Source: Octopus sinensis (Eukaryota). From it: a stretch of 64,000 bases of DNA. Made by a program: the position numbers and the translations under genes. Location: the NCBI RefSeq assembly GCF_006345805.1, contig NC_043007.1, positions 31,930,001-31,994,000 on the forward strand. The letters are read 5' to 3'. Below the pieces are notes generated by a model that was not told where the DNA came from, did no database searches, and was given only the letters and a program-made list of their open reading frames with translations. Shown here piece after piece: positions 20,955 through 53,548 of the stretch; position 1 is the stretch's first letter; the number at the start of each line of letters is the position of its first letter.

Positions 20955-21235
20955 AAAATCCGTTAGATTCACTTCAACATCTAAATTTAATATGCAAAAA
21001 TATTTTTGTTGCTTTGAGACTGCAACCTGTTCACTGACAAAATTTGGTGTAGCAAGAAATTTTGTCAGTGAACAGGTCACGGTTTCAAAGCTACGAAAAT
21101 ATTTTGACAAATTAAATTAAATGGTTTTTGTGTGTTTCTTAAATGGCTTATAAACACCTTCCATGCTGCAATTGTTTTTGTTGCAACACACTATCTCAGA
21201 TCAGGTCACTTGCTATGCAAGTACATCTCTGAAAT
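20955..21235. mobile_element. Palindromic element with a G3-C8 hammerhead-like core
   Basis: Inverted arms at about 20985-21055 and 21057-21120, plus a tail. 21061-21111 reads UUUGUCA-GUGAACA-stem II-GAAA-AUAUUU-UGACAAA. The same family occurs at 36790-37040 and as a remnant at about 60710. Confidence 0.65.
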
Positions 21236-24200
21236 AATATTACTGCATTAGTATTTAAGCCAGCCAAATCCAGCCCAAATATTCTGTTTTGTGTTTGAAC
21301 TGGTCAGATTTGGCCCTTCACACAATGTTATTCTAAAAACAAAAATCTTCGAAATCTCAAAGCCATGAGATAATGCACGGTTAATTCAAAACAATGTGAA
21401 TAAATAAATATTATATTTGACAGAGTAATCTGAATGCTAAGGGGGTTATGGCTACAATTTACTATTATAATGGCTAGAATTTTTAATAAATACTAAACGC
21501 AGAGTGTTTTTTCAAATAAATTGTTACTAATTACTCTAATTCTACTAAAGAATTCTGTTTACAGAATTCCACTGAAGTATATGTTTACATAGGAAATATT
21601 TAAAAATGTTATTTAATTAATTAATTGACTGAAGATGTTATAAAAAAGTATCATTTACACTGCAGCTGAAGAAAATCAGACAAGCCCTTTGCATAGAGAA
21701 AAAAAAAGTAAAAATGAACAAAATTTCTTTGAGCAAGGAAAAAAAAATGCCAATCTCAGTATTAATTTGAATAAATCTCATTGCATTTTCTTTTTCTTTT
21801 TTTACATTTTTATTTTTCAAAATTGAATGTTAAACTGCTGTTTCCAGTATCAAAAGACTATAATTCTCAATTTTGATTAAACAAAAAAATGTATTGATAT
21901 TTTTGATATGTACAAGGAAAAAAAAAACGAAAAAGAAAAAAAGAAAAGAAAATGGTACTGTTTATTATACCCAGGATAATAATGATTTCTAACACAGGCA
22001 CAAGGAAGGCTAGAATTTATTATTATTATTTTATTGTTGGAAGGGTGAGGGTTTGGAGTACTTCAACAGCTATTTTATATCATCAGATCTGAAAGATATT
22101 GACTTCAACAAGATTTAAACTCAGAACCCAGCTAAATGCCACAAAGCATTTTGTCCAGTGTTCTACCGATAATTTCACACTATATATAGGCACTGTATGA
22201 TAGAGGCCAATATGTTCTAGAATATACCATATTTGATGGCACAAAAGATGCACTTTTTCCAAAGAAAAAAAAATGTCTTAAAAAGGATCCTATACATAAA
22301 GTTGGGTCACCCATGAGCTTTAATGCACAAAAAACATTTTTCTCCTGAATATGCTCCACTGAAATTGGGGGGCATCTAATATGACCATATACCTCTATGC
22401 CATCAAAAACAGTAATATTTTTCTAATATCATTCTTAATAAATAGGCAGATGTTACAGAAACTAAAGTACATTCTGAAATATTCCCCTCCTAGCTGAGAT
22501 GTTAACATGAAAATCTTTTCACAACACACTAACACTACATTTCAATCGATTTGGTCACTAAAGCAACCAATATAGTGTAAATGTAAATATAACAGAAATA
22601 TTTCATCTGTAAAGTTGATAGAATTATAATCATATTATTTAAATAGTTCTTGAGTTGATTTTAAAAGTATTACAGTCTACAACAGAAGATAGAATAATAT
22701 AAAGAATTAAATAGCTTTTTATGTGACCAGAGAGAAGAACAGATAGATGGAGTGAACTGTACAATGGTTCAGCCTTGACCAATAAGATTTTGTCCCCAGA
22801 AGCTCAAGGATGCAGACCTCTACAGACTAGTTGGCTCAAAAATGCAGATCTGTACGAGGTGAAAGGGAGCTGGTAGGTGTTGCCTCCTTACTGACAAGAT
22901 ATTTGCCAGCATCCTGCTGAGCTGGTTCATTGCAGATCTTGATCAGGGACTTTGTACAAAAGCCTATGAGGATTGTAGATGAGTGGGTGAGGAGCAGTTG
23001 ACAGGACATCCACTGCCAATAACAGAACTGGTTTATTTTGCACCTGTACTAACTCAACCAAGCAAGCACTTCATTGTTATCAGCATTTAGGATGTGGAAG
23101 ATCATTGCTAAAAGCAGATACCAAACAAGTTCATCTTTTTGATGCAACCATTTTACACAGGCATCAAGATATCCATGAAAATGGGAAGAGATCAGAACTG
23201 TTTACAATCTCAAATAGTGTCCAGCAGGGTTGGCTGGCAAAAACCTTCAACTTGGCAAAAATATCAAGTTTGCAAATGGCTGCATCCCTGATGCTGGCTC
23301 AGAAACTGATGTCCAAGACAAGTTATTATTCGCTACATACACAAACATCAGTCTTGCCTTTAGAACAAAGAAAACTGAAATACTGCATCAGCCAGCTCCG
23401 GGAAGTTCAGAAAAGAGATTTTAAGAAATGCTTCAGGTACTCCTAAAATTTATTTCTCTAAATCCACACACCTGGGAACACAATGACACATTGACCAGGT
23501 CCAAACAGGATTCTTCTGTACATAAAGGTTCCATGTTATGTCAGGAATGCTGCAGAGAAGCAAAGGAGTTAATCCAGACAGCAATCCTTAAGATTTTGTG
23601 TCAATTTGATCCTTTATTCCAACACTGGAATCACCTTCCATCCTTGGATAGGCATCATCAGTTATCTGTGGACCCATCTTGCTGATGATTTTATTCCTGA
23701 ATAATATGAAGTGACTACCATCATAGACTTGATGGTTAAATAACAGAGATTAATGGAATATACACTTCTGATAAAATATACAATTATATTTTATGTATAG
23801 CATATTATTCAATATATTTACCTGAGATGTACAGGTAACTCTAATCCGATCTCTCCTATAAGATATGAAACTGACATATAAAGAGTATTTTAGTATTTTA
23901 ATGTCCTAACTTCATTAGTAGTTTGGAATTCCTTCAAGGGGTTTAGATTTCCATCAAAACCAAGAAACTTTTTCTCTTCAAAATTCGAAACTACTTTCTA
24001 TTCTTTGAAAGCCCCCAGTTAAATTACAGGAAAATACTTTTGAAGACAAATAGTTAGAAAGCCGAAGCTGAGGTCTTATAATATTTTATCTTAAAAATAA
24101 AACAACTTTCATTTTGAAATTTTAAAAGTCGAAAGTACAGTTTGTAAGCTCTTACGCAACCTACTTCTAATATTAAAGTCTATAGAACTTGAGCAGATAT

Positions 24201-24882
24201 ATTATTAAATATATTTTATGTGTTTTCAAATGCTGTGATTTTCTGTATCCTTGAAGCCACCTAATAATTTTCATCCATGTTAACTGGTGATATATGTCTA
24301 ATCTAATACAGCCTAAAAAATTTTAATACAAAAATTATGAAAAAACTTCCAAGTTCTACACAAACTTATGAAGAAAATTAGCAGAAAGAATGGAACTCCC
24401 TCCAAAAAACAGTAAGATATATACTAATAAAAGTACGCTTTAATTAGAAGTGTTTCTTTTATCTAAAATGTGTGTATGGGATTTAATCATTTTTGAAAGT
24501 AAATATTGGAGGTAAAATTTTTTCTTCGCTTTGGCAATGAAAGTTTACAGCAAATATATTTAATAATGCTCTTATTACAATTATGAAGAAAAAAAAACTA
24601 AGGCATGTGCAAAGGAAAAGAAAGATTTTAAGATTTTGCTATACTGAAGAACTAAGTTGGAAAATATATTTATTGAAAAGATATTTTAAAGAAAAAATGG
24701 TCATTTAATAAAGTTATAAGAGAGAAAGGTTAAGAAGTAGCAAGCAAATATTTGCAGAAATTTTGCTTTAATGGAAATGCAACTATTTCTAAGAAGAATT
24801 CTACCAATTCATGTAAAGGAGTGTATCATTTTAAAATAGTGCCCACCCCCACCACCACTCATTGCCTATGTATGTGCTTTAA

Positions 24883-25103
24883 CCCTTTCGTTACTGAATT
24901 TATTTTGAGATGTTCTGTGCTTCTTTCAATTATTTCAGATATAACAAAGAATTTAGCAAAATAACTTCATTATCATTAAGCTAGTGTTGGGAACATAAAT
25001 TGTGACTAAGGTTTGGTGGAAGATTTTAATTCAAAACTTATGAAAACAAGACATATATATTAAAGAGCCAGAGATGGTTTCAGCCGGGTTGGTAACAAAA
25101 GGG
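24883..25103. mobile_element. piggyBac-type MITE (family 1)
   Basis: TTAA TSD and CCCTTT/AAAGGG termini. Confidence 0.85.
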
Positions 25104-26175
25104 TTAAAACAATATGGAACTGAAACTGAAATTAAGCTGTGTGATATTCAAAGAAATAGCCATTGTCTAAAGATATGTTCTCAAGAAAAGTGGAGTAAAT
25201 TAATGTTTTTGAATATTTTGAGATCATTTATAATGTAATGAATAATCATAGCAATTAAACTAATTTTGTCAGTAATCTCTATCTTGATGAGTAAGAAACA
25301 TAATCGTGGGCTAATTCTTGAGAATTGATTTCACAACTCATCTTCATTGCTGGAATCCAATATTCTACCTTTTCAAAATATTGCTTGATTTTGTTTGAAA
25401 AAAGATGGTATTAAGAAAAGATGGTATTGTCTTAATACCAAGATATGGCATCAACATAGCAGCTATGTCTGGAATTGAGAAATGTGCAACAAGATGACAA
25501 TCTATTTTGACTGCTAAAGTGAAAGATAATTCTTCAGCTGGGCACTTCTTATAAGAGACACGATGAAGATTGTTTATTTTAATGAAAAAAATTCTTACAC
25601 CAATTTGTCAACTGAATTCATGACGGAATATCAAAGTCTTACTTAATTCTTTGACATCAGACTTAGAAAAATCAAACCTTTGTGATTATCATAAAAACAG
25701 AAAGATTGAACTTACATTTAAGATGTAAAAGTTGACAAAACAATTTCAAAATATCCAAATTCTTGTGGTTTTCATTTTTAGAGTATAAAAAAAAAAAGAA
25801 AAGCCAAATTTCCTTAAATCTACAGTTGGTGGGAGATGAGTGTAGGAGAAAGAGATAATGACTCATTCTTTCCTTTTTATAGAACGAAAAAATAAAAAGA
25901 AAATATAGGAGACATTACCTTAAACATATCAAGAAGGTATTTCTTGTGCCCAACATAAACATGAATAATTTTACAACTCAAAGAAATTCTATGAAACACA
26001 AGCACTTTTCTTTAACAATGTAGTGGCTTTTCTTCTCCAGTTAACCAATACTATTTGTCTTGTCTAAGAAAAAACAGAATTTTATTGCTTTTGAAAAAAA
26101 AAAAATTTAATTATGATAAACATAATCTCAGAGAAAAAACTGGGGAATTTATTATGAGCAGAAAAGGCATGTTTG

Positions 26176-26211
<36 letters not shown>

Positions 26212-27244
26212 GAAGCACCATAAGAAATATTTCTAGAATCTAGCTAGCAAGAGAATAGATGAATCTTTTGGACATAATCATTACATTTTATGTGTTGAGG
26301 AAAATAGAAAATAAAAGCTAAATGGCTGTTAGTTTACCATTATTAACACTGGGTTTTGTACAATGAAAGTTAAAAAAAAAAACACAAAAAAAAATTTGAA
26401 AATAGAGTGGTTTATTTTAAACTTTTTTTTGTTGGTTGGTTTGTTAGAAAGTAACACTTGTTTGATTGAATGAATGGTTCATATTTAAAAAGTGGATTTT
26501 CTTCCCTTTCGAAAATCATAAATACAATAACAAATGATAGATGGCAGGGGGAGGGGCGAACAGTAAATAAAATTCTTAACATTGGAACAGACTAAATTTA
26601 TTGATGTCAAATATCGAAATGTACCATCCAAAGAAAAAAAACAAAAACTTACCAATCTGCCAGCAGAGAGATAAGTATTTCAGATGTATTTGGATGAAAG
26701 TTACATTTTTTTTGTGACCAAAATAATTTTTAAAAAAAACAAAAAACCCCAGTGAAATGTGAGAATGAACAAAAAAAAATTAATGACTGATTTTTTTTTT
26801 TTAAACTTCTAGAACCTAATATGGAAAAAAAAAATTCTTTTACAGAATTTTGCTAGAATATTGAATTTATGTTCCCTATGATGTTTGACAAACTTTTCTA
26901 AGAAACTTCTTAAAGGTTGATCAACTGAAATATATTGCATGCACACGCACACACACACGCACATAAATTAATGGCTGACAAACAAACAAGGGCCTCATAA
27001 ATGCTTTCATTTGCTTTACGACTATTTCTACTAAAAGAAGCATAGCACTTAGCTCAGAGTACATCGCTTCCTGTAGCAGAAATAGCTTTTATGCCAATGA
27101 TAGTGATTGCATAACTCCTGTTCTTTTGTCATTCATTAATTAATATTACACTCCATACTTGCCTAACTTAAAGCATAAGTATATTGAGTTCTAAGTATCA
27201 CTATATTTAGTACTAGTATATTATTAGTATCACCATACCTAAGT

Positions 27245-27279
<35 letters not shown>

Positions 27280-27282
<3 letters not shown>

Positions 27283-27645
27283 GAAGCAGGCTTGTTTCTC
27301 TGTGTGAGGTAATCATTTTTATTGCCTAGTTTCTCAACATTGTTTTGTTAGGACGGTTTCTTTTTAATTATTAATTTTAATTATTGCAATGTTCTCACCA
27401 GTCATTCGCCAATGAACAGAGACAAAACGAGAATAATCAAAACCCCCAACCAACCTAACGAAACAACATTCAGAAACTGGCCAATGAAAATGGTAACCAT
27501 GCACCAAAGAAAATACCTTATCGATTTCAGAAGCATGAAACTCAAGTTGCAAAAAAAAAAGAGCTCAGTTTAAGTAAACAATATACTCTTTACCATGTAT
27601 TGAGTACTATCTTTTAATTACAAACTATATCATTTAAATATCATA
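27280..27645. repeat. Degenerate palindromic element between (TA)n tracts
   Basis: Diverged arms at about 27296-27352 and 27453-27513; the tail is similar to that of the 9552 element. Confidence 0.55.
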
Positions 27646-28874
27646 TATATATATATATATATCTATATATATGAAATAGGGATGACTAGAAGCAAATATA
27701 TACTGAGTTAATGGTTTAATTAATACCTAAGCCGTAATCATTGATAGGAAAGCTTACACAACAGATTAAGCGTGTCATTACTGTACACATTAGGTGATGG
27801 AACAAAAAAAGAAAAACAGATTCAGAATTCTACGGTTCCTTAACTTAAATTTAAAGTTATACTAAAGCTTGTATTTTTTTTATCCCTTTCTAGCTGCTGA
27901 TGAAAAAAAGTTTTTTAAAAAACATCAATATATAGCTTATGCAGTGAGCAGAAAACTTTACACCTTATAAATTTATGAAAATGCCTCTAGAAAATATTTA
28001 TTCAGTAATAAATAATGTTCCACATTTTCACTTTGTTTTAAAAAAACAAAACAAAAGGAGTAGCATTTTCAACTAAATATTTCTATTGACAACAGTGTTT
28101 GATGAGTCCTTAAGTAGCTGTGTGATTTGCAGGGGTTTGGTTTTATCAAAAGGGTTTTGTGTTCTCAAACAAAAATGCAAAATAGGATTTTAGCAAAGGC
28201 ATCATATTGTTGGAGATAAAATTACTTCATGGTAGGACGTTTCATATGACGAATGACTTAAGATTTACGAAATTCGGCAACCAATTTAAAATGCAAAAAT
28301 GAAATGATGGAGATGGTAAAAAAAAAAAAATCAACTTTTAAAACAAAATGATAAAAAAAAAATAAAACAGCAAAAGGTAGAAATTATTCAAAATAAGTCA
28401 ATAAATATGATAAATAAATAATAAATAGACAGTTGACATGCTTTCAAGTCAGTAATGAAATGGCTGTGGAAAGACTATAAACTCAATTAGCTTCAAAAGG
28501 TTTATCAAACATGAGAGGTCTTGCAAGCTGTAAATTTGAAAATCCAATGCTTTTGGCAACAGCCATCGACAAGTCTTAATGCAGTTAAGTACAATAATTC
28601 CACGGGTTATTTGCTATTCTGCATCAGCTCTGCAACTGCAACAGTCCTATGTTACTAACAGGCTTAATCTCTTCTGTTGTGACAACAAGCCATTCTCTTC
28701 GGTACCAGCACCAAGCCATTGTGTGTTGTGGAGCGGCAAGAGGCTAGTTTGTTCTGTGCAACTTACATGACACAGGTGACAGCAGCAAATCAATGGCAGC
28801 AGCAGCAGCAGTTTAAGAAGGATCAACAAGTTGAAGAGTGTCCTTGGTCGGGGGGAGGGATAAGGGGAAGCGCT

Positions 28875-29030
28875 TCATACATAGAGGGTTCCATGATGAA
28901 TGCCATCTGAAACAATGTCCAAATCTAAATCAGTCTCATGCATGTGCATCTGATCCAATGAGGCAGTCGCCATAGCAATATCAGGCATCACTTCGCTAAG
29001 TGCATTCTCTCCACAGGTATTTGGTTCGTT
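28875..29030 (-). CDS. BTBD7: BTB/POZ domain-containing protein 7, terminal coding exon
   Basis: TTTAG| acceptor, phase 0, 52 codons: NEPNTCGENALSEVMPDIAMATASLDQMHMHETDLDLDIVSDGIHHGTLYV*. Confidence 0.8.
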   Translation of the reverse strand, partial: NEPNTCGENALSEVMPDIAMATASLDQMHMHETDLDLDIVSDGIHHGTLYV

Positions 29031-29098
29031 CTAAAGAAAAATATAAGAAAATCAGCAATGAAAATGGAGATTAAATTGAGTTGAGTGAATGTTTTAGA

Positions 29099-29820
29099 GG
29101 CATACCTACACACATGTGGCCCCATCAATTTTGTTTCCTTATAACTTCCAAAAAATGGATATTTTTTAATGAAATTTTCTATAAATACTCTTCAGATGGT
29201 GTACATTCCGATTATATTGGAATTTGTTGTGAAAGAATTTTTTCTATGGGTGGGAAGAGGAGCTTTGGAAAACTCACATGAGTTGGCTGTCTTTCCTCAT
29301 AACTTTCAGAAAAATGGGTATTTTTTAATGAAACTTTCTACAAAAACTTTTCAGAGTGTGTAAATCATGATTACATTGAAATTTGATATGAAAAGAAACC
29401 TAGTAAGCATGCACACATACATACTGACACACATCACGATTTCTTTCAAAATTTCAAGTTTCATTTGTAGATTTATGTGATGTGTGTCAGTATGTATGTA
29501 GATGAGCCCATCAAATTTTTGTTTCTCACACTAAATTCCAATATAATCTTAATCTACAGATTCTGAAAGGTATTTATAGAAAATTTCATAAAATATTGCC
29601 CGTTTTTCTCAACGTTATGAATAAACAAATCCATCTTATGTGAATTTTCCAAAACTCTTCACCCCACACTTGGAAAAACTTTTTCCCTACACATTCCAAT
29701 ATTCTCAGAATGTACACCATCTGAAATGTATTTCTAGAAACTTCCATTAAAAAAATATCCATTTTCCTGGAAGTTATGAGGCAACAAAGTCAGCAGGGAG
29801 CACACATGGGAGGCTCTGCC
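29099..29820. mobile_element. ~720-bp foldback (MITE-like) element
   Basis: Long diverged inverted arms, e.g. CAGATGGTGTACATTC / GAATGTACACCATCTG and CATACATACTGACACACATCAC / GTGATGTGTGTCAGTATGTATG. Confidence 0.7.
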
Positions 29821-29860
29821 ATTTTATCAACTAGTAAGGAAAAAGTAAAAGAAACTTTAA

Positions 29861-30690
29861 CCCTTTAGTATTTCAACTGGCCATATAAAGCGGCCCAAAT
29901 ATTCTGTTTTAGGTTCAAACTGGCCAGATCTGGCTTTTCACTCCTACCCAACAATGTCATTCTAAAAGTAAACAACCACATCACTGAGATCTTTAACCTA
30001 AGTGATGATGTATGATTAATTTATCTTTTATCTTGTTTTAGTCATTTGACTGTGGCCATGCTGGAGCACTGCCTTAGAGAATTTTAGTCAAACAAAATCA
30101 ACCCCGGGACTTATTTTTCTTTTGCAAAGCCTGATACTTAGTCTATAGGCCTCATTTGCTGAAACTGCTAACAGGGATGTAAACACACCAACACCAGTTT
30201 TGAAGTGGAGCTGGGGAACAAATACAGAAACAAAAACACACACATAAATATATATCTGTAAATGTAATATGTGACAATTATTCGGTAGCCAAGATAAAAC
30301 TCTGAGTTTCGGATGGCGAGGTGGAAATCCACACCCCCATCTCTTGGATGGCCGGATAACTGGAGAGATGGTGGTGTGGATTTCCACCTTGGCATCCGAA
30401 ACTCAGAGTTTTATCTTGGCTACCGAATAATTGTCACATATTACATTTACAGATATATATATAAATATATATATATATGCTAGCATGGAAAGTGGACGTT
30501 AAACGATGATGATGATGATGATGATATATATATATATATATATATATATACGCTATGATTTTCTTTCAGTTTCCGTCTACCCGAGGCTATAATAGAAGAC
30601 ACTCGTTCCAGGTGCCATGCAGTGGGACTGAGCCATGTAGTCAGAAGGCAAAAAATATATATTTGGCAGAGTAATCAGAATGCTAAAGGG
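29861..30690. mobile_element. piggyBac-type MITE (family 2) carrying nested insertions
   Basis: TTAA|CCCTTTAG...CTAAAGGG|TTAA, interrupted by a family A SINE at about 30021-30650. Uninterrupted relatives lie at 63186-63406 and about 21245-21447. Confidence 0.75.
30251..30458. mobile_element. Palindromic hammerhead-bearing element in the SINE's (TA)n tract
   Basis: Near-perfect arms of about 95 bp. The motif at 30355-30415 (GAUAA-CUGGAGA-stem II-GAAA-CUCAGAG-UU-UUAUC) belongs to the same family as 10106 and has an A6G core change. Confidence 0.7.
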
Positions 30691-31485
30691 TTAAAGCCAA
30701 CAAACAAAACAGAAAAGGAATAAAACTCCATAAAATGCAAAGTCAAAACATTCTATTTTGCAAAGAGAAATGCAATTCGACTACTTCAACATAAAAATCT
30801 ACAAAAAAGAAAAATTCTTTTGTAAACGTATCAAAAGAATTTAAACAGCAGTTTGTAAAAGAAAATTCTACAATTAATAAAGATGAGAATGTAAACATGT
30901 TGTAAACCTTAATGACTTCATCATTGAAGAATGTCTTCATGTAGTGTGTCAAGAACAAGGAAGTCTAGCAGAGTACTTCATTCTCCATATGAAATCATAT
31001 TGAAAGAAATGTGTTAAAACTTTGTTCATAATTAAACATTGTTTCACTTCACTTATTTTGTTTACATAAGTTAAAACTTAGATAACAATCTTGTGCATAA
31101 TTTAGAGCAGCCAGGGGCCAATTGGAGCCCACAGGACTTTCTAAATGCTCTGCCTAATGAAAACTTACTTTGAATATTTTTGGTAGTGGCAGCCGACCTG
31201 ATGGTGAGCCAAGTCACATGCAGCCTGCTGCTTGGAAAAGGCTGTCCGTGCCTGATTTTGTTCAGTAACTTATCCTCTTTTTTCCCTTCTTTTATTTATT
31301 TCAATCACTGGATTATGGCCATGCTGTGGCACCACCTTGAAAGGTTTTAGGCAAACAAACTGACCCCAGTAGGTCTGGTGCTTATTTATGTGAATCTCTA
31401 AGTTACAAAGACATTAAACAAAACAGAACTGGTTGTCAAGAGGGGCCAGGAGACAAAAACAAACACACATACATACTCACATACT

Positions 31486-31935
31486 TTTATACTCTTTTAC
31501 TTGTTTCAGTCATTTGACTGTGGCCATGCTGGAGCACTGCCTTTAGCCGAGAAAATTGGCCTCAAGGACTTATTCTTTGTAAGCTTAGTACTTATTCTAT
31601 TGGTCTTTTCTGCCGAACCGCTAAGCTACGGGAACGTAAACACACCAGCATCGGTTGTCAAGCGATGTTGGGGAGACAAGCACAGACACGCAAACATATA
31701 CACACACATACATACATACATACACACACACCTATATATACACACACGCACACCTATATATATATATACACACACACATATATACGGTGGGCTTCTTTCA
31801 GTTTCCGTTTACCAAATCCACTCACAAGGCTTTGGTCAGCCTGAGGCTATAGTAGAAGACACTTGCCCAAGGTGCCACACAGTGGGACTGAACCCAGAAC
31901 CATGTGGTTGGTAAGCAAGCTACTTACCACACAGC
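31486..31935 (-). mobile_element. tRNA-derived SINE (family A)
   Basis: Full-length copy with an internal (CA/TA)n tract. Confidence 0.8.
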
Positions 31936-33960: not shown

Positions 33961-34275
33961 TAATTTCGTTTTTGGATTTGGTTTGCAAGATTCTTTATAT
34001 GAGTTTGTGTGTTGAAGCATATTATGTTGTGTCTGGGGAAAGTCATTTTCTTTTTGTGCCTTATAATGTAACACACTCACTGGTTAAATTTCCACTTATT
34101 TTCCTAAAATTTTTGTTGCATCTTGCCAACTTTACAAGACTATTGAAAAGGTTGCAAGACACAACGGAAATTTTAGGAAAATAAAAATAAGAAAAAAGTG
34201 GAAATTTTACTGGTGTGTGTGTTACATTATAAGGCACAAAAAGAAAATGACTCTCCCCAGACACAACGGAATATG
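33961..34275. mobile_element. Palindromic element (U3-A8 hammerhead-like family)
   Basis: Arms at about 34025-34125 and 34150-34272; same family as 53295-53548; decayed motif at 34140-34176. Confidence 0.7.
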
Positions 34276-36789: not shown

Positions 36790-37040
36790 AAGCTTTACGG
36801 AGATGTACTTGCATAGCAAATGACCTGACCTGAGATCGTGTGCTGGAACGAAAACAATTGCAGCATGGAAGGTGTTTATAAGCCATTTAAGAAACACACA
36901 AAAACTGTTAGATTCACTTCAACATTTAAATTTAATTTGTCAAAATATTTTCGTCGCTTTCAGACCACGACCTCTTCACTGACGAAAATATTTTGACAAA
37001 TCAAATTTAAATGTTGAAGTGAATCTAACGGTTTTTGTGA
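36790..37040. mobile_element. Palindromic element (G3-C8 hammerhead-like family)
   Basis: Arms 36901-36955 and 36981-37036. The minus strand reads GUCA-GUGAAGA-GGUCGU..GCGAC-GAAA-AUAUUU-UGAC. Confidence 0.7.
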
Positions 37041-41500: not shown

Positions 41501-41641
41501 ACAAAGAGCTTAGTTAAACAGATGAACTCCAGTACTTATTGTATTGGTCTCTTTTGCCAAACTGCTAAGTTACGGGGTCATAAACAAACCAACACCAGTT
41601 ATCAAGCAGAGGTGGAACAAACACAATAGCACAAACTCATA

Positions 41642-42201: not shown

Positions 42202-42231
42202 TGTATGTATGTATGTGTGAGTGTATGTATG

Positions 42232-42267
<36 letters not shown>

Positions 42268-43210: not shown

Positions 43211-43286
43211 CTCGCTCCTCCACTCTTTTCACAAGCTGGTGTTCCCCCCATTTTAATACAGCATTCAGAACATCTAATTCGCCAGC
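43211..43286 (-). CDS. BTBD7: BTBD7 internal exon (BACK domain)
   Basis: TTTCAG| acceptor and GAG|GTAAGT donor; 76 nt, phase 0 to 1; AGELDVLNAVLKWGEHQLVKRVEER. Confidence 0.92.
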
Positions 43287-45286
43287 CTGAAATACAATAT
43301 AAAACCACCATATAGAAAAAAAAAAGTAAATTACCAAATGCATTATACATACAAAAGTGGACCGCGATATGGCAAGGGATTACTGCATACATTTCACTAT
43401 GAAAGATATTGAAAAATATAGCTTCAAACTTCTCAAGAACACAATCCAAAATATCAAACTGTATAGACCTTGTCAACCCATGCAACCAAAGACCATGTAT
43501 AAAAGATATCTTTGTCTGCCCCACGTCATCATCATCCTTGTTTGTCCTCTCTGTGTTTAGCCCCTTGTGGGTAGTAAAGGAATAGGTAATATTCTCTCCA
43601 TTGCCAAACATGTTTTTGCAGAATACTGGAAATGAACGACATTCCTTACACACACACACACAAGCTTCTTCAAGGTTCCATCTACCATATTCACTCACAA
43701 GCCCCAAGGCCATAGTTGAACACTTGGCCAAGATGGTGCACAGTGGAGCTAAACTCAAAACCACACAGCTTCACCTATGTATATGAATGTGTGTGTATGC
43801 ATAGAGAGAGACAAACAGACAGACAGATAGCTTACAGGTTTTCTGCTTTATATGCATTACAAAGTTTTTTTGGGTTTGTTTTTCTCTTCTGCTCCCATAA
43901 ATTTTAATCCCACTTCAACTGTGCAAAACCAGACACAAATCAGATTCCTGCAGTCACTCACAATAACCCCGGCAGCAATAAAAGGAAAATCTTCCATGGT
44001 TCGTGGATTGGTCGATGGTTTAATAAATCCTTACAAATGTAATAAAAACTCATCTCAGTTGTTAATGTAGAAATGAAAGTGTTACAACACCACTTTATCA
44101 ATTAGACTATTTATATTAAAACTATTATTTCAACATAAAATTAAAGCAAAAAAAAAAGAAAAAAGAAAAGAAACATTAATGAATTATTTATGAAAGTTAT
44201 GCAAGTATTTCAACTGTGGTATTTTGAATTTACTTAGCCATGTCAGCAGACAGAACAAAACAATTCAGAGGGAAAGAGTTATTGAATAAAAAGCAACTGG
44301 GAGCTTATGAAAGGAATACAAAATTTTAGCTAACTTATTTTAGTACACACACACACACACACACATATATATATTGCATTTTATTCTCATGAGAAATAAT
44401 GCTAACAATAAAATTTTACATGAATAGCAGCTAGTTATTCAAGCCACGAAGTGAGCAGGAAAATTAAACTATGCAACCAGCCCCCACCACTCCATATTTT
44501 CTTGTCAATTTGATTAATCTCAGACATTAATGATGATGATGATGATGATGATGATGACGACAACAATGGTGATGATTGTAATATTTAAAATTAACAGTCC
44601 TATACAATCTTGCAAAACCCCAGCTACTCACTGCTACTAACCTTGTGCCTTGAGGGGCCACCTGGATACCCCACCTCTAATATTTATCTCTTTGCAGTTC
44701 CAAATGATCATTTTTTTCTCTCTCACTCTTCTAAATGTGAGCAGTCATGTCCCTCTTATGCAAGAACCTGCTCTGACCCCACCCTTCTCTCATATTTTAA
44801 CCTTTCATCTCCTGGCATAAAGCCAAACCCACTCCTTCAGGTTCACAGTCTTGCAAAGTGTATGGTAACCTCAAAAGTGCTGGTAGAATGAAAACATGCA
44901 CTCAGTACATGCAGTAAAGTGGTTGACATCAGGAAGGGCATTCAGCTGTGGAAACCTTGCCAAATCAGATGCTGGAACATGATGCTGTCACACCATTCAC
45001 CTCATGCTAGCATGGAACATGGATGTTAAATGGTGATGAATCTCACTTATTGGAAATTAAAGGATAAACAATAGCTGAAACAAGTAAAAGATAAAAGATA
45101 TATACAACAAGCTTCTTTCACTTTCCACCTACCAAACCCACTCAAAAGGCTTTGATCAGACTGGGACTAATGCATAGACACTAAACAAAAGTGTCATGCA
45201 CTGGGATTGAACCCAAAACCATGTGGCTGGAAAGCAAACTGTTCATTCAAAAAAATGTATCAATGTTCAGAACTGATGAAACAGAC

Positions 45287-45323
<37 letters not shown>

Positions 45324-45326
<3 letters not shown>

Positions 45327-45705
45327 TTTTACTTGTTTCAGTCATGTGACTGTGGCCATGCTGGAGCACCACCTTTGGTCAAGCAAATCGACCCCTGGAC
45401 TTATTCTTTGTAAGCCTAGTACTTATTGTATTGGTCTCTTTTGCCGAAACACTAAGTTACAGGGACATAAACACACCTGCATCAGTTGTCAAGCGATGTT
45501 GGGGTGGGGACAAACACAGACACACAAACATACACATACATATATATACATATATACGACGGGCTTCTTTCAGTTTCCGTCTACCAAATCCACTCACAAG
45601 GCTTTGGTTGGCCCGACGCTATAGTAGAAGACACTTGCCCAAGGTGCCACACAGTGGGACTGAACCCAGAACCACGTGGTTGGTAAGCAAGCTACTTACA
45701 ACCAC
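45324..45705 (-). mobile_element. tRNA-derived SINE (family A)
   Basis: Near full-length copy. Confidence 0.8.
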
Positions 45706-46691
45706 TCTTATACTTTTAAATGGAAACATTTAACAATTGAACTTAGCTCATTACAACTGCATGTTTTTAAAGCTTGATTGCAGTCTGCAAGAAAGGACAT
45801 TGTAATCAAAGAAACGAGATAGGAAAGAGATCCATTTAATAGCCTTGGTCTAAAGTATAGAGGTAACAATGCCAGATGGAATTATCACCGTTCTTCCTAG
45901 CATGCCTCATGGAAAATTTCTCTAACAAAAGTGACACTACTATTTAAGTTAGCTACTGTGACTACTGACAATGGAATGGAAACTTTTGACTTTGGAATAT
46001 GGAAAGGATGGAAATAGAAAAAAAAACTCAAATCTAACAGAATATTGATAGACATCATCATTGTTTAACATACGCTTTTCAATGATGCTATGGGTCAGGT
46101 AGAATTTATTGAGGCAAATTTGTCTCAAAGCAAGGAAATATTTCCCCATAGCCAGACATGTTTTCCATGACTTGACTTGACTTGAGACAGCATTCACCCG
46201 GGGTGGGTTGAGCTGGCTTCATTCATCCTCAATGCTGCATCTCTCACAAATGCCGACCAGGCCTGGCGATTTGAGGTTAACGACTGCGTGATCTCCAACC
46301 CCTCCGGTGAACGCCATAGATATGGGGGCCTAGGTTGGGTTCCAGATCAGCCTTGACTGTCATCAGCCAGGGTTTTCATTGTCCACCACATCGCTTTCGC
46401 CAACCCTGAAGGAAAACTGGAAACAAACAACCTCGCTTGGTTGACAATGATGCTCATTTACAGCCATCACATGATATCTAGACTAGGGTACACATAAACA
46501 CACACACAATGGGTTTTCACGCAGTTCCCGTCTACCAAATCCGCTCACAAGGCTTTGGTCAGCCTGGGGACTAAGGTGGTGCTGTGCAGTGAGATTGAGC
46601 CCAAGATCACATGGTTGGGAAGGCAGCTTATCAACAAACAAAGCTATGCTTGTGTCCATATGAGTTTTCAAAATAAATGCAGAAATTAAAT

Positions 46692-48243
46692 AAGCGCAGG
46701 AGTGGCTGTGTGGTAAGTAGCTTGCTATCCAACCACATGGTTCCGGGTTCAGTCCCACTGCGTGGCATCTTGGGCAAGTGTCTTCTGCTATAGCCCCGGG
46801 CCGACCAATGCCTTGTGAGTGGATTTGGTAGACGGAAACTGAAAGAAGCCTGTCATCATCATCATCATCATCATCATCATTTAACATCCGCTTTCCATGC
46901 TAGCATGGGTTGGACGGTTCAACTGGTGTCTGGGGAGCCCGAAGGCTGCACCAGGCCAGTCAGATCTGGCAGTATTTCTACAGCTGGATGCCCTTCCTAA
47001 TGCCAACCACTCCGAGAGTGTAGTGGGTGATTTTATGTGCCACCGACACAGGTGCCAGACGAGGCTGGCGAACGGCCACGCTCGGATGGTGTTTTTATGT
47101 GCCACCGACACAGGTGCCAGACAAGGCTAGCAGACGACCACGCTCAGATGGTGTTTTTTATGTGCCAGACGAGGCTGGCGAACGGCCACGCTCGGATGGT
47201 GTTTTTATGTGCCACCGACATAGGTGCCAGACGAGGCTGGCGAACGCCACGCTCGGATGGTGTTTTTATGTGCCACCGACACAGGTGCCAGACAAGGCTA
47301 GCAGACGACCACGCTCAGATGGTGTTTTTTATGTGCCACCGACACAGGTGCCAGACGAGGCTGGCGAACAGCCACGCTCGGATGGTGTTTTTATGTGCCA
47401 CCGACACAGGTGCCAGACAAGGCTAGCAGACGACCACGCTCGGATGGTGTTTTTTATGTGCCACCGACACAGGTGCCAGACGAGGCTGGCGAACGGCCAC
47501 GCTCGGATGGTTTTTTTTTTTATGTGCCACCACCGACACAGTGCCAGACGAGGCTGGCGAACGGCCATGCTCGGATGGTGTTTTTATGTGCCCCGACACA
47601 GGTGCCAGACAAGGCTAGCAGACGACCACGCTCGGATGGTGTTTTTTATGTGCCCCGACACAGGTGCCAGACGAGGCTGGCGAACGGCCACGCTCGGATG
47701 GTGTTTTTTATGTGCCACCGACACAGGTGCCAGACAAGGCTAGCAGACGACCACGCTCGGATGTGTTTTTATGTGCCACCGACACAGGAGCCAGATTTGG
47801 CTGGCGATCGGCCACGATTGGGTGGTGATTGTTACGTGCCCACAGCATGGAGGCCAGTCGGTGCGGTACTGGCTACACCCACGTTCGGATGGTATTCTTG
47901 TGTGCCACCGGCACTGGTACCACAAAGATACAAATTCCATTGATGTTCATCTATTTTGATTTTGTTTGATTTTCACTTGCCTCAACAGGTCTTCACAAGT
48001 GTCACAAGAAGGAAATGCATGTGTGTGTGTGTTTGTGTGTCTGTGTTTGTCCCCCTAGCATTGCTTGACAACTGATGCTGGTGTGTTTACGTCCCCGTAA
48101 CTTAGCGATTCGGCAAAAGAGACCGATAGAATAAGTACTGGGCTTACAAAGAATAAGTCCTGGGGTTGATTTGCTCGACTAAAGGTGGTGCTCCAGCATG
48201 GCCACAGTCAAATGACTGAAACAAGTAAAAGGGTAAAAGAGTA
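46692..48243 (+). mobile_element. Family A SINE split by an antisense RTE 3'-end insertion
   Basis: SINE head at 46692-46852, LINE 3'UTR with a (CAT)n tail at about 46853-48010, SINE tail at about 48019-48243. Confidence 0.75.
47030..47800. repeat. ~62-bp tandem array with alternating A/B units
   Basis: About 12 units of TTTTTATGTGCCACCGACACAGGTGCCAGAC-[GAGGCTGGCGAACGG or AAGGCTAGCAGACGA]-CCACGCTCGGATGGTG. Confidence 0.9.
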
Positions 48244-49513
48244 AGCGAAATGCAGAAGTAATGTATGCATTCACAAACACACACAAATGTCTCAAACTGA
48301 ATGTGAAAAACAGAGGCAAGGTGCAGAAATATGTATGAAAGCCTACAAGTATTTCCAGATAAGTGAATGTGAGACATTTTAATGAGGTGAATGACATTTC
48401 AAACTGTATTTATTTATTTATCAACTGAATAATATGAATATATGAAGTATGCACACTAAATGTTATTTAAATTAAGTCTTTGTGTGTAAAACACTCCATT
48501 GAGTCAAGTTGAGAGACTAAATAGCCATCATGCACTGAAGGGGGAAATATCCCTTACTCTGCAAAAACTGTAATTTTGTCAAGAGATCTTAATATTTTGT
48601 TCTAAAAATTGTTTTCATTAAAGTTACTGGATTAATAACAAAGTAAGTGAACTGTAAGGGAGATAAAGAAAGTGGCGGGGGGGGGGGACAATGTATTTTT
48701 TTCAGAATGTAGATTAGTAATAGAACAAAGAAAGATTAGTGTAGAAATATAGAAATAGACACAGATAGTTCACAAGGAGGAAATGTTTATACAGAATTGA
48801 AGAAAGCAGGTCTTCAAGTGCAGTGGGTAGAAAATAGGTCGGAAGGAAGGGAAAATTAATGTAGAAGTTGTGAATGGTGTGGATTTAATAGTGAACAGTG
48901 GTCCTTCTACACAGAATGCCAGGAAGTTAGTTTCTTTAACAGTGTGTGTGTGTGTGTGTGTAGTTGCATGTGTGAGTGTGTGTGTGTGGTTGCATATGTG
49001 AGTGTGTGTGTGTTTAAACTTTAAAAAACATTAACAAAGAAATTTTTTTAAAAGGTATAAAAGAAAAGCATTCAGGTTAATAAAACAATAAAACCTTACA
49101 AAACTGTAAAGGAAGCAGTTTAAAAATATTGTTCTAAAACTCAAACTCAGTCAAGATTTGTGCTTGAAGAGCAAGTCATTAATCCCCACCACCACCACCA
49201 GACACCCCCTGCTCCATTACCCCTAATTTGACAGCAACAAGCAGATGAGAGATACATTGCTCTTCAGAGGGGACATCAGTCTCTCTCTCTCTCTCACCCC
49301 CTTTTCTCATTCTTTATCATAAGACAGCACTCAAAAACATGAATCCAATTATTATATCAAGTGCCCAGTCAGTCGGTTCACCATGTGACATCTAGGTCAC
49401 TCCCTGGTTTTGTAGCTAATCTGATTATTTATTCTGGTGATGTGCGATGAATGAGGGGGTTCAGATGGATCCTTGCTCACAGAATTGCAGAACTTCAGAC
49501 TTGTGATCATTGC

Positions 49514-49797
49514 TTTTAATGTCCATTTTTCTATGCTCACATCGGTCTCAGAGAATTTATTGAGGTGAATTTTAATGTCCATTTTTCTATGCTCGCATCG
49601 GTCAGAGAGAATTTATTGAGGTGAATTTTAATGTCCATTTTTCTATGCTCGCATCGGTCAGATAGAATTTATCGAGGTGAATTTTAATGTCCATTTTCCT
49701 ATGCTTACATCAGTCAGTGAGAATTTATTGAGATGAATTTTAATGTCCATTTTTCTATGCTCACATCGGTCAGTGAGAATTTATTGAGGTGAATTTT
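49514..49797. repeat. 56-bp minisatellite, 5 copies
   Basis: TTTTAATGTCCATTTT starts at 49514, 49570, 49626, 49682 and 49738. Confidence 0.9.
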
Positions 49798-52254
49798 CTA
49801 CAACCGAAATGCCCTTGCTGTCACCAACCTTCACCTGTTTCCAAGTGAGGTAATATTTTTCTATGATCAGGAATGTTGCCACAGAAGACTGGAAACAAAA
49901 GACACCACTTGCATGATTGTGACACTCATTGACAACTATCACAAGGAGGAGACAGTAACACACACACAGATACATACATACAATACATAGGAGCACTCCG
50001 TCAGTTATGAAGACGAGGGTCCCAGCTGATACGATTAACGGAACAGCCTGCTCGTGAAATTAACGTGCAAGTGACTGAGCAATCCACAGACATGAGTATC
50101 CTTAACGTAGCTCTCAGGGAGATTCAGTGTGACCCAGAGTGTGACAAGGCCGGCCCTTTGAAATACAGGTACAAAAGAAACAGGAAGAAAGAGTGAGAGG
50201 GTTTTGCTCAACAAATTGACTAGTTATGGGGATGAAAACAAACCAACACCCATTGTCAAAGCGTGGGTAGAAAGGGGACACACATATGGACTTGTTTCAG
50301 TTTCTGACTACCAAATCTATCCACAAGACGCAGAGCTGTACCAGAAGGCACTTGCCCAAGGTGCCACACAGTGGGACTGAACCCAAAATCCTGTGGTTGG
50401 AAACTAAATTTCTCAACCACATAGCCATGCCTGTACCATACATACATACAATTGTCAATATAAAAGCCAGTAACATGTTTTTTTTTTTCAAAAGGTCGCT
50501 CAACTGATCCATTTTTATTCAGTCACTTTCAGTCAAAGTAAACCAAAGCCAAACATGGCTTATCTTAAAAACTTTATACACCTTTGAATTAACCGATCCA
50601 GCCAGTAAACTTGTTCACCTAGTTATTATCAGTCATACATATTCATATCCAATTTCTTCTTAAATAGACTGTGATTATGTTAAAAAGACTAACGTTAAAG
50701 TCAACACTAAAAAAGCAGTCCATTTAATGTAACTTAAGTTTCAGGTTTTTTTATTCTTATAACTTAATTTTGATTCTAACTCACTTCATTATAATATCAC
50801 AGGTTATTTTTCTGAATAAACAACAATTTCTTTGGTAAATATTTTATTAACTCTACAGGGATAAAATACAATGTTTATTATGGTAGGATTCACTCACCAT
50901 CATCATTGTTTAACATCCGTTTTCCATGCTGGCATGAGTGGGTCAGTTTGACTGGGGAGTAGCAAGCCAGTAGGCTGTGCCAGGCTCCAATCTGATCTGA
51001 CAAGGTTTCTACAGCCGGATGCTCTTCCTAACGCTAACCACTCTGAGAGTGTAGTGGGTGCTTTTTACGTGCCACCAGCACCGGGGGGGGGGGGGGGGGG
51101 GGGGTCAGGCGGCACTGGCATTGACCACGTTCGGATGGTGCTTATACAAACAAGAACAGACAAAGGGGTTAAATTGATCACATCGATCCCCAGTATTTCA
51201 CTGGTACTGAATTTATCGACCCCGAAAGGATGAAAGGCAAAGTCAACCTCAAGTGACTAAAACAAGTAAAAGATTAATACCTGTACGATTTTGAAGCACA
51301 CATATACTAGGACATACAGGTGTAGGTTTGGTTGTGTGGTTGAGATGCTCTGAATCATGTCTTGGATTCAGACTCACTTGAACAAGTGTCTTTCACTATA
51401 ACCCTGGGCCAGCCAAAGCCTTGTGAGTGGATATGATAGACAGAAATTGAAAGATGCCTGTCATGTCTGTGTGTCCTTGTCTACACATGATGTTCATAAA
51501 TGAGCATCATCATCACACAAACGAGGTCGTTGTTTTCCAGTCTTCCATGAAAAAAAATATCTCCCTATGGGAGAAGACTATCTTGTTTCAAAACAGCTGA
51601 TGGTTGGTGACAGTAAAGGCATCGGCCTCACCAAATTCCATCTGACCCATGCAAACATGGAAAAAAGTGGAAATTCAATTATGATGACGATGATATATGT
51701 GGTTTCATCATATACCATTTTAGTATTGTCAGTATTGTAATTTTCATGTAGTTCTTTTTAACAAAATTAATAAAAGATAACAAAATGAAGAAAAAGAAGA
51801 GATTATTTTTCTGTTTTTTCGTTAATATCCAATTAGTTATAGTTAGTAATATAAAACTGTTATCAACTTAAAATATCTTCAGCTCATTTGCTTAGACTCA
51901 ATCCGGATGATGTAACACCAGCTCATTAACAAAGCCCCTTATCAGTGAAAGTAATTTATTTTGAAGCCAGTACACAGATGGTAAAGTCTCTAAATGTTAC
52001 TCCAGCCGTTTCTAATTGATTATAAATTGAAAGTAAAATGCCCATTAATTTATCTTTTACTCGTTTCAGTAATTAGACTGCTGCCATGTCGAGGTAATGC
52101 ACGGGAAGGTTTTACTTGAACGAATCCACTGCAGTATTTATTCCATCAGGATCTTCTGCCAAACTACTAAGTGATGGGGATGTAAACAAACCAACACCAG
52201 TTGTCAAGCAGTAAGGAGTCAATACAAACAGAAAAGCACACACACACACACATC

Positions 52255-52896
52255 TGAAAAACTTCGACCAAGATCAAAATGAAATATGGTTATGTGCAGA
52301 CCCTTCTGAAGTTCCAAGTGTTATGCATACAAAATTTCCTGAAACTGTCATAGTTTTAGGGGTTGTCAACAATGAAGGACATGTGATGCCTCCTTACTTC
52401 TTTCCACAAGGCCTTTGAGTTAATTCTGCCACCTATATTGAGGTCCTGGAAACAATTAAGCCCTGGATAGAGAGTGTATGCAATGGAAGGCCATATATGT
52501 TTCAGTAAGTCTCTGCACTGTCACACATGGCTCTAGTAACACAGGAATGGATAGCTGAAAATTTTTATGATCACATAACCCCTAATACTTGGCCTACTAA
52601 TTTCCCAGATCTCAATCCATTGGACTATTACATGTGGAGCATTGTTGAGAGAAGGTCAATGAACATGTCCATATCACCGAAGATTCTTTGAAAGATGCCA
52701 TAGTCAGAGTAATGTCCAAAATGAACCAGGACCACTTGATTCGAGCATGTGGTTGATTTAGATCTCATATAGAAGAAGGTGGCTTCATTGAATAACATTA
52801 TTTTTATCCTAATAGCATTTTTTGATAAATAAAGTTATCTGTTATTATATATCTATTTTTTATAAGCATAAATTTGTCCTCAAATATCTTACCCTG
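52255..52896 (+). pseudogene. Tc1/mariner-superfamily (maT, DD37D-type) transposase 3' relic
   Basis: Reads GHVMPPYFFPQGL*VN..KPWI..YMFQ*V..WPTNFPDLNPLDYYMWS. There are 37 residues between the mutated second D position and the PLD aspartate. The relic ends ..ACCCTG|TA. Confidence 0.8.
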
Positions 52897-53294
52897 TATA
52901 TGACAGAAAAACCAGGAAACCTACCTTATGCTTCCTACAGAGTATTGTGGACTAACCATGACCAAATGACATTAAACATCATACAAATAATTAACATTTC
53001 ATCTATCAAACCCATTTTACACCATATTTTCTTTTGTGCCATTGGCCTAATTATGCCCTTTTTTAATCATATATCTGTTTTAGCTCACAATATAAACTAT
53101 GACAGATTTATAGCATAGGTGTCAGCAGTGACATCCCACAGTTCAGAGCAAATATTATATTCATTCTGGACTGCAGGTGTTGCAGGTGGTAGACAAGGTA
53201 AGCAAAATGTTGAAGTCTAAACAAAACCAATATTTCAAGACAGAGAGAAAAAAAAAATCTAAAGATATAGTAACAATACATGTAATTAATTATA

Positions 53295-53548
53295 TTTCGT
53301 TTTTGGATTTGGTTTGCAAGATTCTTTATATGAGTTCATGTGTTGAAGCATATTCTGTTGTGTCTGGGGAGAGTCATTTTCTTTTTGTGCCTTATAATGT
53401 AACACACACACCAGTAAAATTTCCACTTTTTTCTTATTTTTATTTTCCTAAAATTTTCGTTGCGTCTTGCAACCTTTTCAATAGTTTTGAGTGTGTTAAA
53501 TTATAAGGCACAAAAAGAAAATGACTCTCCCCAGACACAACAGAATAA
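53295..53548. mobile_element. Palindromic element with a U3-A8 hammerhead-like core
   Basis: Arms at about 53352-53410 and 53490-53547. Minus strand 53448-53484 reads CUA-UUGAAAA-G-GUUGC-AAGAC-GCAAC-GAAA-AUUU-UAG. Confidence 0.7.

What the first reader, a model, noticed from the sequence alone, without database searches (positions are those of the whole stretch)
20955..53548. Two element families with non-canonical hammerhead cores compensated at the 3-8 pair (G3-C8 and U3-A8)
Seen: family X (21061-21111, its mirror arm, and ~36937-36983 minus) has hammerhead topology (7-bp stem I UUUGUCA/UGACAAA, ~5-bp stem II, GAAA, palindromic AAAAUAUUUU stem III), but the core is GUGAACA in two of three copies. 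Family Y (53448-53484 minus; 34140-34176) has core UUGAAAA, stem II GUUGC/GCAAC and a palindromic AAAAUUUU. Both have one extra G after A9. The decayed 7559 hairpin shows UUGAUAA. Established: C3-G8 is a Watson-Crick tertiary pair in the active hammerhead fold, and compensatory swaps can rescue cleavage. Inference: double changes that preserve the pair in unrelated families suggest selection for active variant ribozymes that standard CUGANGA searches would miss. Caveats: most individual copies are decayed, the predicted triplet is UUU, and family Y stem I is only 3 bp.
Basis: partly seen in the sequence, partly recalled or inferred. Interest (0 to 1): 0.8.

Follow-up and report, generated by a model that had tools for sequence, protein, structure and literature searches.

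The report
Penelope retrotransposon hammerheads with swapped core
These repeats are the cut-down ends of related Penelope-like jumping genes, and their hammerhead-shaped RNA keeps two core letters complementary in four different ways, one of them a G3-C8 swap that we could not find described in nature; it is likely a slow self-cutting ribozyme, but cutting is untested.

Summary
The motifs are there, but X and Y are not unrelated. They are truncated, partly inverted ends of two sister Penelope-like retrotransposons (RT plus GIY-YIG, 52% identical) in an octopus-type genome. One full-length X element carries the G3-C8 motif in both terminal repeats. Across six related lineages in this genome and four outside loci, positions 3 and 8 always pair (C-G, U-G, U-A, G-C), stems I-III change in compensating pairs, and loop II drifts. 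So the hammerhead fold is under selection. U3-A8, U3-G8, the extra nucleotide after A9, palindromic stem III and a UUU triplet are already published for Penelope hammerheads, so Y and the 7559 hairpin are ordinary. G3-C8 (one origin here, kept in young intact elements) and an A9-to-C core in another young family were not found in print; two key papers could not be read. The scan noted unverified G3-C8 candidates in protist elements before. Against activity: a non-pairing G3-G8 sub-lineage spread (6 of 100 arms), stem III is barely stable, copy ends do not pile at the cut site, and four of five X/Y window motifs are damaged. Cleavage is untested.

The parts
21048..21235 (+). Family X long arm: 5'-truncated terminal repeat (pLTR) of a Penelope-like element, hammerhead plus tail
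   Evidence: 81% identical to both pLTRs of full-length element L429
21061..21111 (+). X hammerhead motif, G3 21068 - C8 21073, extra G 21075, predicted cut after U17 21104; stem II decayed in this copy
   Evidence: fold z -0.78 for this copy against -3.8 for an intact family copy
21143..21232 (+). First ~30 codons of the element's ORF (MAYKHLPCCNCF...), the Penelope 'tail'
   Evidence: same N-terminus as the ORF starting at L429:1157
20955..21042 (-). X inverted short arm with mirror motif (G3-C8, G12 changed to A, stem I partly broken)
36795..36989 (-). Family X long arm, second copy; hammerhead 36936-36983 with non-pairing G3-G8 core
36981..37039 (+). Inverted short arm of the second X copy, starting inside stem II (no core)
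60709..60780 (+). X tail fragment without hammerhead
53294..53496 (-). Family Y long arm (pLTR of the sister element); intact U3-A8 hammerhead 53448-53484, predicted cut after U17 53451
   Evidence: ORF link
53488..53548 (+). Inverted short arm of this Y copy
34135..34275 (+). Family Y arm with decayed U3-A8 hammerhead 34140-34176 (A13 changed to G)
33963..34146 (-). Family Y longer arm ending in the first ~28 codons of the ORF (MTFPRHNIICFN...); core decayed
7560..7711 (.). Family Z foldback; plus-strand U3-A8 hammerhead 7637-7682 with 4-bp stem III and GUC triplet, decayed here; no ORF partner found, tail not related to X/Y

Best explanation
Families X and Y are truncated terminal repeats of two sister Penelope-like retrotransposons, and their conserved hammerhead-shaped RNA, G3-C8 in X and U3-A8 in Y, likely works as a slow minimal hammerhead ribozyme that would cut only as a dimer or with the element's protein. 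Shown: each family lies behind an RT + GIY-YIG ORF; a full-length X element has the motif in both repeats; the short copies end about 30 codons into the ORF and often carry an inverted partial arm; 3-8 and the stems stay paired across lineages. Inferred from published Penelope work: the element's protein nicks AT-rich DNA and starts reverse transcription inside the ORF's 5' end, most copies stop just upstream of the hammerhead, and a second priming or template switch gives the inverted arm. Inferred: two same-sense motifs in a tandem transcript pair through the palindromic stem III and cut after U17, trimming the transcript; the cut is probably not needed for every insertion. The window's copies are passive, mostly damaged remnants, and their foldback arms would pair with each other, not form a ribozyme dimer.
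For: ORF link for X: 722-aa frame with DKSG, YVDD, CxxxCxxC and GIY-YIG-type motifs upstream of the motif; atlas neighbours carry HTH_animal, RVT_1 and GIY-YIG; L429 has motif-ORF-motif, 4.36 kb apart. ORF link for Y: 12 of 30 loci hit the X protein at 39-62%. Tree: X, Y, A and T form one clade, bootstrap 99. Pair states by family majority: G-C (X, W), U-A (Y, V), U-G (U), C-G (A), and C-G, U-A, U-A, C-G in four outside loci; 10 of 10 pair, 5.6 expected on shuffling; all pairs 127 of 137 against 90.8 (lineages are related, so these are not true probabilities). Tool count on 14 natural copies: 97.6% of cells paired, 0 of 500 shuffles as high, slid controls 14-66%. X subfamilies differ at 5 of 9 loop II positions and 0 of 38 core and stem positions. 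Young X2 copies: G3-C8 in 19 of 19. Intact family copies fold to stems I and II as the minimum-energy structure. The engineered C3G/G8C double mutant partly restores cleavage of a Penelope hammerhead, which needed the element's protein (PMC11167929).
Against: No cleavage data. G3-G8 in 6 of 100 X arms (5 loci) against a 0.5% background for C/G transversions, P about 2e-4, so a non-pairing variant was probably copied. Family A has C at position 9 in 11 of 11 copies. Stem III self-duplexes are -0.2 kcal/mol for X and +2.2 for Y. Of 22 incidental X arms, 1 begins near the predicted cut, 10 begin 6-21 nt upstream of N3. Families W, V and U were found with a pattern that fixed U4, G5, A6, A9, stem II and GAAA, so their invariance there is built in. 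Three of the four outside motifs were picked by eye, and 3 of 7 outside loci with downstream sequence printed showed no clear motif. No ORF was found for W, V, U or Z.
Confidence: 0.72

Rival explanations
1. The fold is conserved but catalysis is largely lost: in this clade the hammerhead-shaped RNA serves as a structural signal (protein binding, transcript 5' boundary or stop for reverse transcription), and the odd cores reflect relaxed catalytic selection.
For: C9 in a young intact family and G3-G8 in a spreading sub-lineage; very weak stem III; copy ends pile just upstream of the motif, not at the cut; ribozyme-dead mutants still insert in vitro and no reads end at the cut site in the Anolis element (PMC11167929).
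Against: The 3-8 pair is a tertiary pair of the active fold (established), and it stays pairable in four forms in 10 of 10 lineages; position 17 is never G by majority; U4, G5, A6, G12, A13 and A14 are kept in X, Y and A, which were not found by a core pattern.
Confidence: 0.22
2. The repeats are foldback DNA elements (MITE-like) and the hammerhead look is a by-product of AT-rich palindromes.
For: Long inverted arms; AT-rich palindromes such as AAAATATTTT; no Rfam match.
Against: Arms are asymmetric and many copies have one arm only; the unit is the end of an RT-endonuclease element; stems covary across lineages; 4 descriptor hits against 0.1 by chance.
Confidence: 0.02
3. One reading: unrelated families converged independently on compensated cores.
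For: Z (U3-A8) has no tail likeness to X or Y (z -1.0 to 1.4), and U3-A8 recurs in outside loci and in print, so U3-A8 probably did arise several times.
Against: X and Y share ORF, tail, extra G and stem II. G3-C8 is seen in one clade only (X plus W, tail z 12-23).
Confidence: 0.04

Closest known systems
Minimal type I hammerheads of metazoan Penelope-like elements (Cervera and de la Pena 2014, PMC4209133)
   Same: Place in both terminal repeats; short stem I; one extra nucleotide between 9 and 10.1; G10.1-C11.1; palindromic stem III; thousands of solo and opposite-strand copies. Its Fig. S3 text shows U3-A8 (Schistosoma), U3-G8 (Saccoglossus) and GAAA-AUU-U with a UUU triplet (Crassostrea).
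   Different: No row of that table begins with GUGA and none has C at position 9; its consensus for the extra nucleotide is H, here it is G in all lineages (one table row, Nasonia, also has G).
Poseidon element of Anolis carolinensis (Frangieh et al. 2024, PMC11167929)
   Same: Copies end inside the 5' part of the ORF; AT-rich ATT/AAT targets; hammerhead in the pLTR; C3G/G8C partly active.
   Different: There G3-C8 is an engineered mutant and the ORF starts in stem II; here it is the natural state and the ORF starts about 90 nt after N3.
Neptune clade of endonuclease-bearing Penelope-like elements (Craig et al. 2021, PMC8557442)
   Same: RT then C-terminal GIY-YIG, Cys linker CxxxCxxC, 5' truncation, inverted 5' partial copy, tail, microsatellite-rich sites.
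   Different: Canonical hammerheads are reported for such clades; Neptune against Nematis was not tested with named reference proteins.
Natural hammerhead core variants (Perreault et al. 2011, PMC3088659)
   Same: U3-A8 covariation and U15.1-A16.1 described in nature.
   Different: The text names no G3-C8 or C9; its Figure 5 could not be seen.

Membership tests
Endonuclease-bearing Penelope-like element | Single ORF with Penelope-type RT and C-terminal GIY-YIG | tested here: met
   P0001 motifs; atlas neighbours with HTH_animal, RVT_1, GIY-YIG at 0.96; homologues carrying these Pfams. Direct Pfam scan of P0001 gave 0 hits.
Endonuclease-bearing Penelope-like element | Tandem pLTR-ORF-pLTR, 5' truncation, inverted 5' partial copy | tested here: met
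   L429 repeats 555-1189 and 4892-5550, 94% identical; inverted copies in L142, L144, L428 and the window
Endonuclease-bearing Penelope-like element | Tail: copies end in the 5' part of the ORF, with alternative ends | tested here: met
   X, Y, V, U and A tails encode homologous N-termini; two ends in Y
Neptune clade | Cys-rich linker before the endonuclease, and placement with named Neptune proteins | tested here: inconclusive
   CQSNCAVC present; no named Neptune or Nematis reference was in the tree
Minimal type I hammerhead ribozyme | Stems I and II around the core, GAAA, palindromic stem III, NUH triplet | tested here: met
Minimal type I hammerhead ribozyme | Canonical core sequence C3 U4 G5 A6 N7 G8 A9 | tested here: not met
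   G3-C8 in X and W, U3-A8 in Y, V and Z, U3-G8 in U, C9 in A; no Rfam match
Minimal type I hammerhead ribozyme | 3-8 pair kept, with covariation in the stems | tested here: met
   exception: G3-G8 sub-lineage
Minimal type I hammerhead ribozyme | Self-cleavage 3' of position 17 | not testable with these tools
   Only assembled contigs were offered, which cannot show RNA ends
Non-LTR retrozyme | Head-to-tail tandem monomers of 170-400 nt, each with a hammerhead | tested here: not met
   Copies are solo or inverted ends, or flank an ORF; arrays were not searched genome-wide

The most novel reading that the evidence does not exclude
One clade of recently active Penelope-like elements has explored the hammerhead core further than described in nature: all of C-G, U-G, U-A and G-C at 3-8, plus C in place of A9 next to a fixed extra G, while staying catalytically active (perhaps with the element's protein as chaperone). 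It would be the first natural purine3-pyrimidine8 hammerhead, in roughly twenty thousand copies, and the standard descriptors would be missing a large class.
Probability: 0.4. Interest if true: 0.65.

Novelty: new variant of a known kind. Interest (0 to 1): 0.48.

Why it matters
The G3-C8 swap has been a laboratory test of the 3-8 pair; a natural, high-copy, recently mobile element that uses it would widen the hammerhead consensus and the search descriptors. The clade is also a ready series (G-C, U-A, U-G, C-G with C9, and a non-pairing G-G sub-lineage) in elements with intact ORFs, which makes the open question of what Penelope hammerheads do, and whether cutting matters for movement, directly testable. 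The system itself (Penelope element with a minimal hammerhead) is known, and Y and Z add nothing new.

Tried and rejected
Rfam at E<=5: 69 matches, none a hammerhead. Within-family covariation: uninformative, variation among copies is mostly CpG decay after insertion. Spliced copies: I first read 'GAG|ATGCAGC' starts as spliced forms (note), then rejected it, because they match the inverted tail joined by microhomology. The branch-point-like CTAAC...AG just upstream of the X motif is not shared by Y, V, U or W, and no splice joint appeared in contigs; an intron is unproven. A Y copy next to another Penelope ORF in L140 is a chance neighbour. An X2b motif downstream of an ORF in L384 belongs to a separate insertion; that ORF is family A. 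A search for a C3-G8 or A3-U8 sister with the same stem II showed, among the 100 of 372 matches listed, essentially mutated X/Y copies; family A was found later through its ORF. The pattern gave 0 matches. Metagenome pattern scan for the G3-C8 motif: 0. RNA: no RNA holder listed on record, contigs only; no bearing on expression or cutting. PDB sequence search: nothing useful. Pfam on P0001: 0. My family labels mixed Y into X and were not used. No ORF partner found for Z (11 loci), W, V or U. Host gene not identified: 50 of 124 window frames scanned, one RVT_1 hit. Papers not held: Lunse 2017 and Przybilski and Hammann 2007; one search fetched an unrelated paper.
Full report
1. Observation. The motifs stand as described. 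X: N3 at 21068 (+) and 21034 (-), both GTGAACA, and 36979 (-) GTGAAGA. Y: N3 at 53481 (-) and 34143 (+), TTGAAAA. The 7559 hairpin (Z): N3 at 7640, TTGATAA. Only the 53481 copy is undamaged relative to its family. Rfam has no hammerhead match here. A descriptor free at 3 and 8 gave 4 hits in 664 kb against 0.1 per shuffle; all were X or Y copies and 2 of the 4 were G3-G8.

2. The families. G000 is a 2.7-Gb animal genome; the best named relative of the X protein is an Octopus vulgaris protein, and that protein's own family has 100% matches in G000, so an octopus is inferred. First-look candidates: X 3542, Y 3724, Z 1080, of which 40 each were scored. In 60 evenly spaced 10-kb stretches X occurred in 5 and Y clearly in 3, which scales roughly to twenty thousand and over ten thousand insertions. 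Family motifs by column majority: X UUGUCA GUGAACA G GUCGC loop GCGAC GAA AAUAUU U UGACAA; Y CUA UUGAAAA G GUUGC AAGAC GCAAC GAA AAUU U UAG; Z AGU UUGAUAA GUGC CAAC GCAC GAA ACUC loop GAGU C ACU. Z has no extra nucleotide, a real stem III and a GUC triplet, and its tail is unlike the others. Copies are one full arm with or without a shorter inverted arm at the 5' side.

3. What they belong to. Walking upstream from X led through a (TACA)n-rich region to a 722-aa frame with Penelope-type RT motifs, a CxxxCxxC linker and a GIY-YIG-type end. L429 is a whole element: repeat 555-1189 with the motif at 1065, ORF from 1157 to 4368 with one frameshift, repeat 4892-5550 with the motif at 5426. Sister copies hold open frames of 807-1042 codons, 95-96% identical to P0001, so this G3-C8 lineage moved recently. 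The tail of short copies is the first ~30 codons of that ORF, also in the window. The same walk from Y found an ORF in 12 of 30 loci, 52% identical to X over the region used for the tree. X and Y are therefore sisters, not unrelated. This architecture is that of endonuclease-bearing Penelope-like elements (PMC8557442, passages; PMC11167929, parts 1-2 of 4).

4. More relatives and covariation. A pattern free at 3 and 8 (100 of 224 matches listed) showed three more families, read: W (G3-C8, 6-bp stem II, AAUU), V (U3-A8) and U (U3-G8, AGGACU). ORF searches gave family A (young, frames of 1044 and 1120 codons; C3-G8 with C at 9 in 11 of 11 copies) and a decayed U3-G8 element, T. Tails group as (X,W) and (Y,V,U,A); the ORF tree puts X, Y, A and T in one clade, bootstrap 99, with (A,T,Y) at 100 (L430 left out for having 20 residues; 7 of 19 outside loci used). 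Of 7 outside loci with downstream sequence printed, 4 had a readable motif (C3-G8; U3-A8 with C9; U3-A8; C3-G8 with GUC), 1 a partial one, 2 none; three of the four were picked by eye. Over six own lineages and these four, 3-8 pairs in 10 of 10 (5.6 on shuffling), the first three pairs of stem I in 29 of 30 (21.6), stem II in 30 of 30 (22.9), stem III in 20 of 20 (13.7). For the six own lineages alone 3-8 gives 6 of 6 against 3.0, with 3.5% of shuffles as high. The lineages are related, so these overstate significance. On 14 natural copies the counting tool found 97.6% paired cells and both-sided change at 3-8 and at stem II pair 3, but only 2 pairs with both-sided change, no more than its shuffles on that measure (stems I and III were not counted there because the alignment was out of register). 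Between X subfamilies loop II changed at 5 of 9 positions through visible intermediates, core and stems at 0 of 38. C3-G8 in outside loci and in A suggests it is ancestral, with U3-G8 and U3-A8 as one path and G3-C8 arising once before X and W split (inference).

5. Results against activity. G3-G8 occurs in 6 of 100 X arms (5 loci, the window's 36979 copy among them) against 0.5% background, so a non-pairing variant was probably copied. Family A lacks A9, the partner of G12 in the active fold (established knowledge, recalled). Predicted stem III self-duplexes are -0.2 (X) and +2.2 (Y) kcal/mol. Among 22 X arms met by chance in loci fetched for other reasons, 10 begin 6-21 nt upstream of N3, 6 inside stem II and 1 near the predicted cut: the copied RNA was mostly uncut. 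That agrees with the Anolis element, where ribozyme-dead mutants still insert. Sequencing runs were contigs only and say nothing on cutting.

6. Mechanism. Shown: element identity, place of the motif, tail, inversion, conservation of the fold. Inferred: target-primed reverse transcription from inside the ORF's 5' end at AT-rich sites; early stop near the motif; inverted second arm by microhomology; slow cleavage after U17 by two same-sense motifs in a tandem transcript, perhaps helped by the protein. I put the element and the selected fold at about 0.92, and real if slow catalysis by the G3-C8 form at about 0.7 to 0.8 given that.

7. What is known. PMC4209133 (main text parts 1-2 of 4; supplement file 2 parts 1-2 of 3; file 1 not searchable) reports minimal hammerheads in Penelope repeats with the extra nucleotide, palindromic stem III, about 1300 U3-A8 hits in Schistosoma, and low dimer activity; its Fig. 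S3 text includes U3-G8 and a UUU triplet, and no GUGA core. PMC3088659 (passages and section 8; figures not seen) reports natural U3-A8. PMC11167929 shows partial rescue by engineered C3G/G8C. PMC3884650 (passages) mentions an engineered G3-C8 variant. Also seen: PMC6765202, PMC7229834, PMC6155905 (passages), bioRxiv 10.64898/2026.07.22.740005 (part 1 of 5). Lunse 2017 and Przybilski and Hammann 2007 were not held; from memory, the first concerns stem III variants and the second shows that all four Watson-Crick pairs at 3-8 can cleave, some ribozymes preferring pyrimidine-purine. A natural G3-C8 or C9 core did not turn up in searches; the library lacks many papers and figures, so this is weak evidence of absence. 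Earlier scan notes list two unverified G3-C8 candidates behind Penelope RTs in other genomes.

8. Verdict. A real feature and a new variant of a known kind. Y and Z are ordinary. The G3-C8 core in young intact elements, with its four-state series and the C9 family, is worth an assay. Interest 0.48.

Noticed in passing
L424:2195(-), L425:5571(+), L384 about 4030(+): Young Penelope family A with intact 1044-1120-codon frames carries a hammerhead motif with C in place of A9 (CUGAUGC G) in 11 of 11 copies, and position 17 is C in 5 and U in 6; outside locus L356 also has C9, with U3-A8.
   Followed up: partly
window 36936-36983; L015, L108, L109, L344: A G3-G8 sub-lineage of X, 6 of 100 arms, far above background; likely a non-cutting variant that was still copied.
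   Followed up: partly
L355 about 4970-5010 (downstream of its ORF): Outside relative with C3-G8, the extra G, and U15.1-A16.1 in a UAGCUA palindrome; single sequence.
   Followed up: no
L360, about 170 nt after its ORF: Perfect 5-bp stem I (GUGUG/CACAC) around CUAAAGA and a GAUAUC palindrome, with almost no stem II; decayed or a further variant.
   Followed up: no
X arms genome-wide; L429:1020-1044: 5' ends pile up 6-21 nt upstream of N3, next to a branch-point-like CTAAC and pyrimidine-rich AG; may mark a transcript start or an intron end; no splice joint seen in contigs.
   Followed up: partly
L127, L154, L391 (3201-, 3552+): Another U3-A8 family with 4-bp palindromic stem III (ACUGCAGU) and GUC triplet.
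   Followed up: no
L055, L065, L148, L379, L140:3330-3390(-): Canonical C3-G8 minimal hammerheads of other families in the same genome; L140 also holds a Penelope ORF with the DKT motif (Hydra-like) and an ISXO2-like transposase.
   Followed up: no
window 7919-9169: Nested, nearly perfect inverted repeats (322 nt 100%, 137 nt 100%, 153 nt 97%) forming a 1.25-kb palindrome; young foldback or assembly artefact.
   Followed up: no
window 1726-2205 (-): Reverse transcriptase fragment (RVT_1, E 1e-12), no match to the X protein.
   Followed up: no
L144:4359-7104: 597-bp direct repeats, 98% identical, bounding an insert inside the X element's 3' region; LTR-element-like, only observed.
   Followed up: no
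window 4426-4774, 47043-47841, 49458-49797: Tandem arrays with periods of 32, about 62 and 56 nt.
   Followed up: no
sequencing runs X13, X16, X17: Family X is also held in runs labelled with three other organisms, with the G3-C8 core in their contigs; not studied further.
   Followed up: partly
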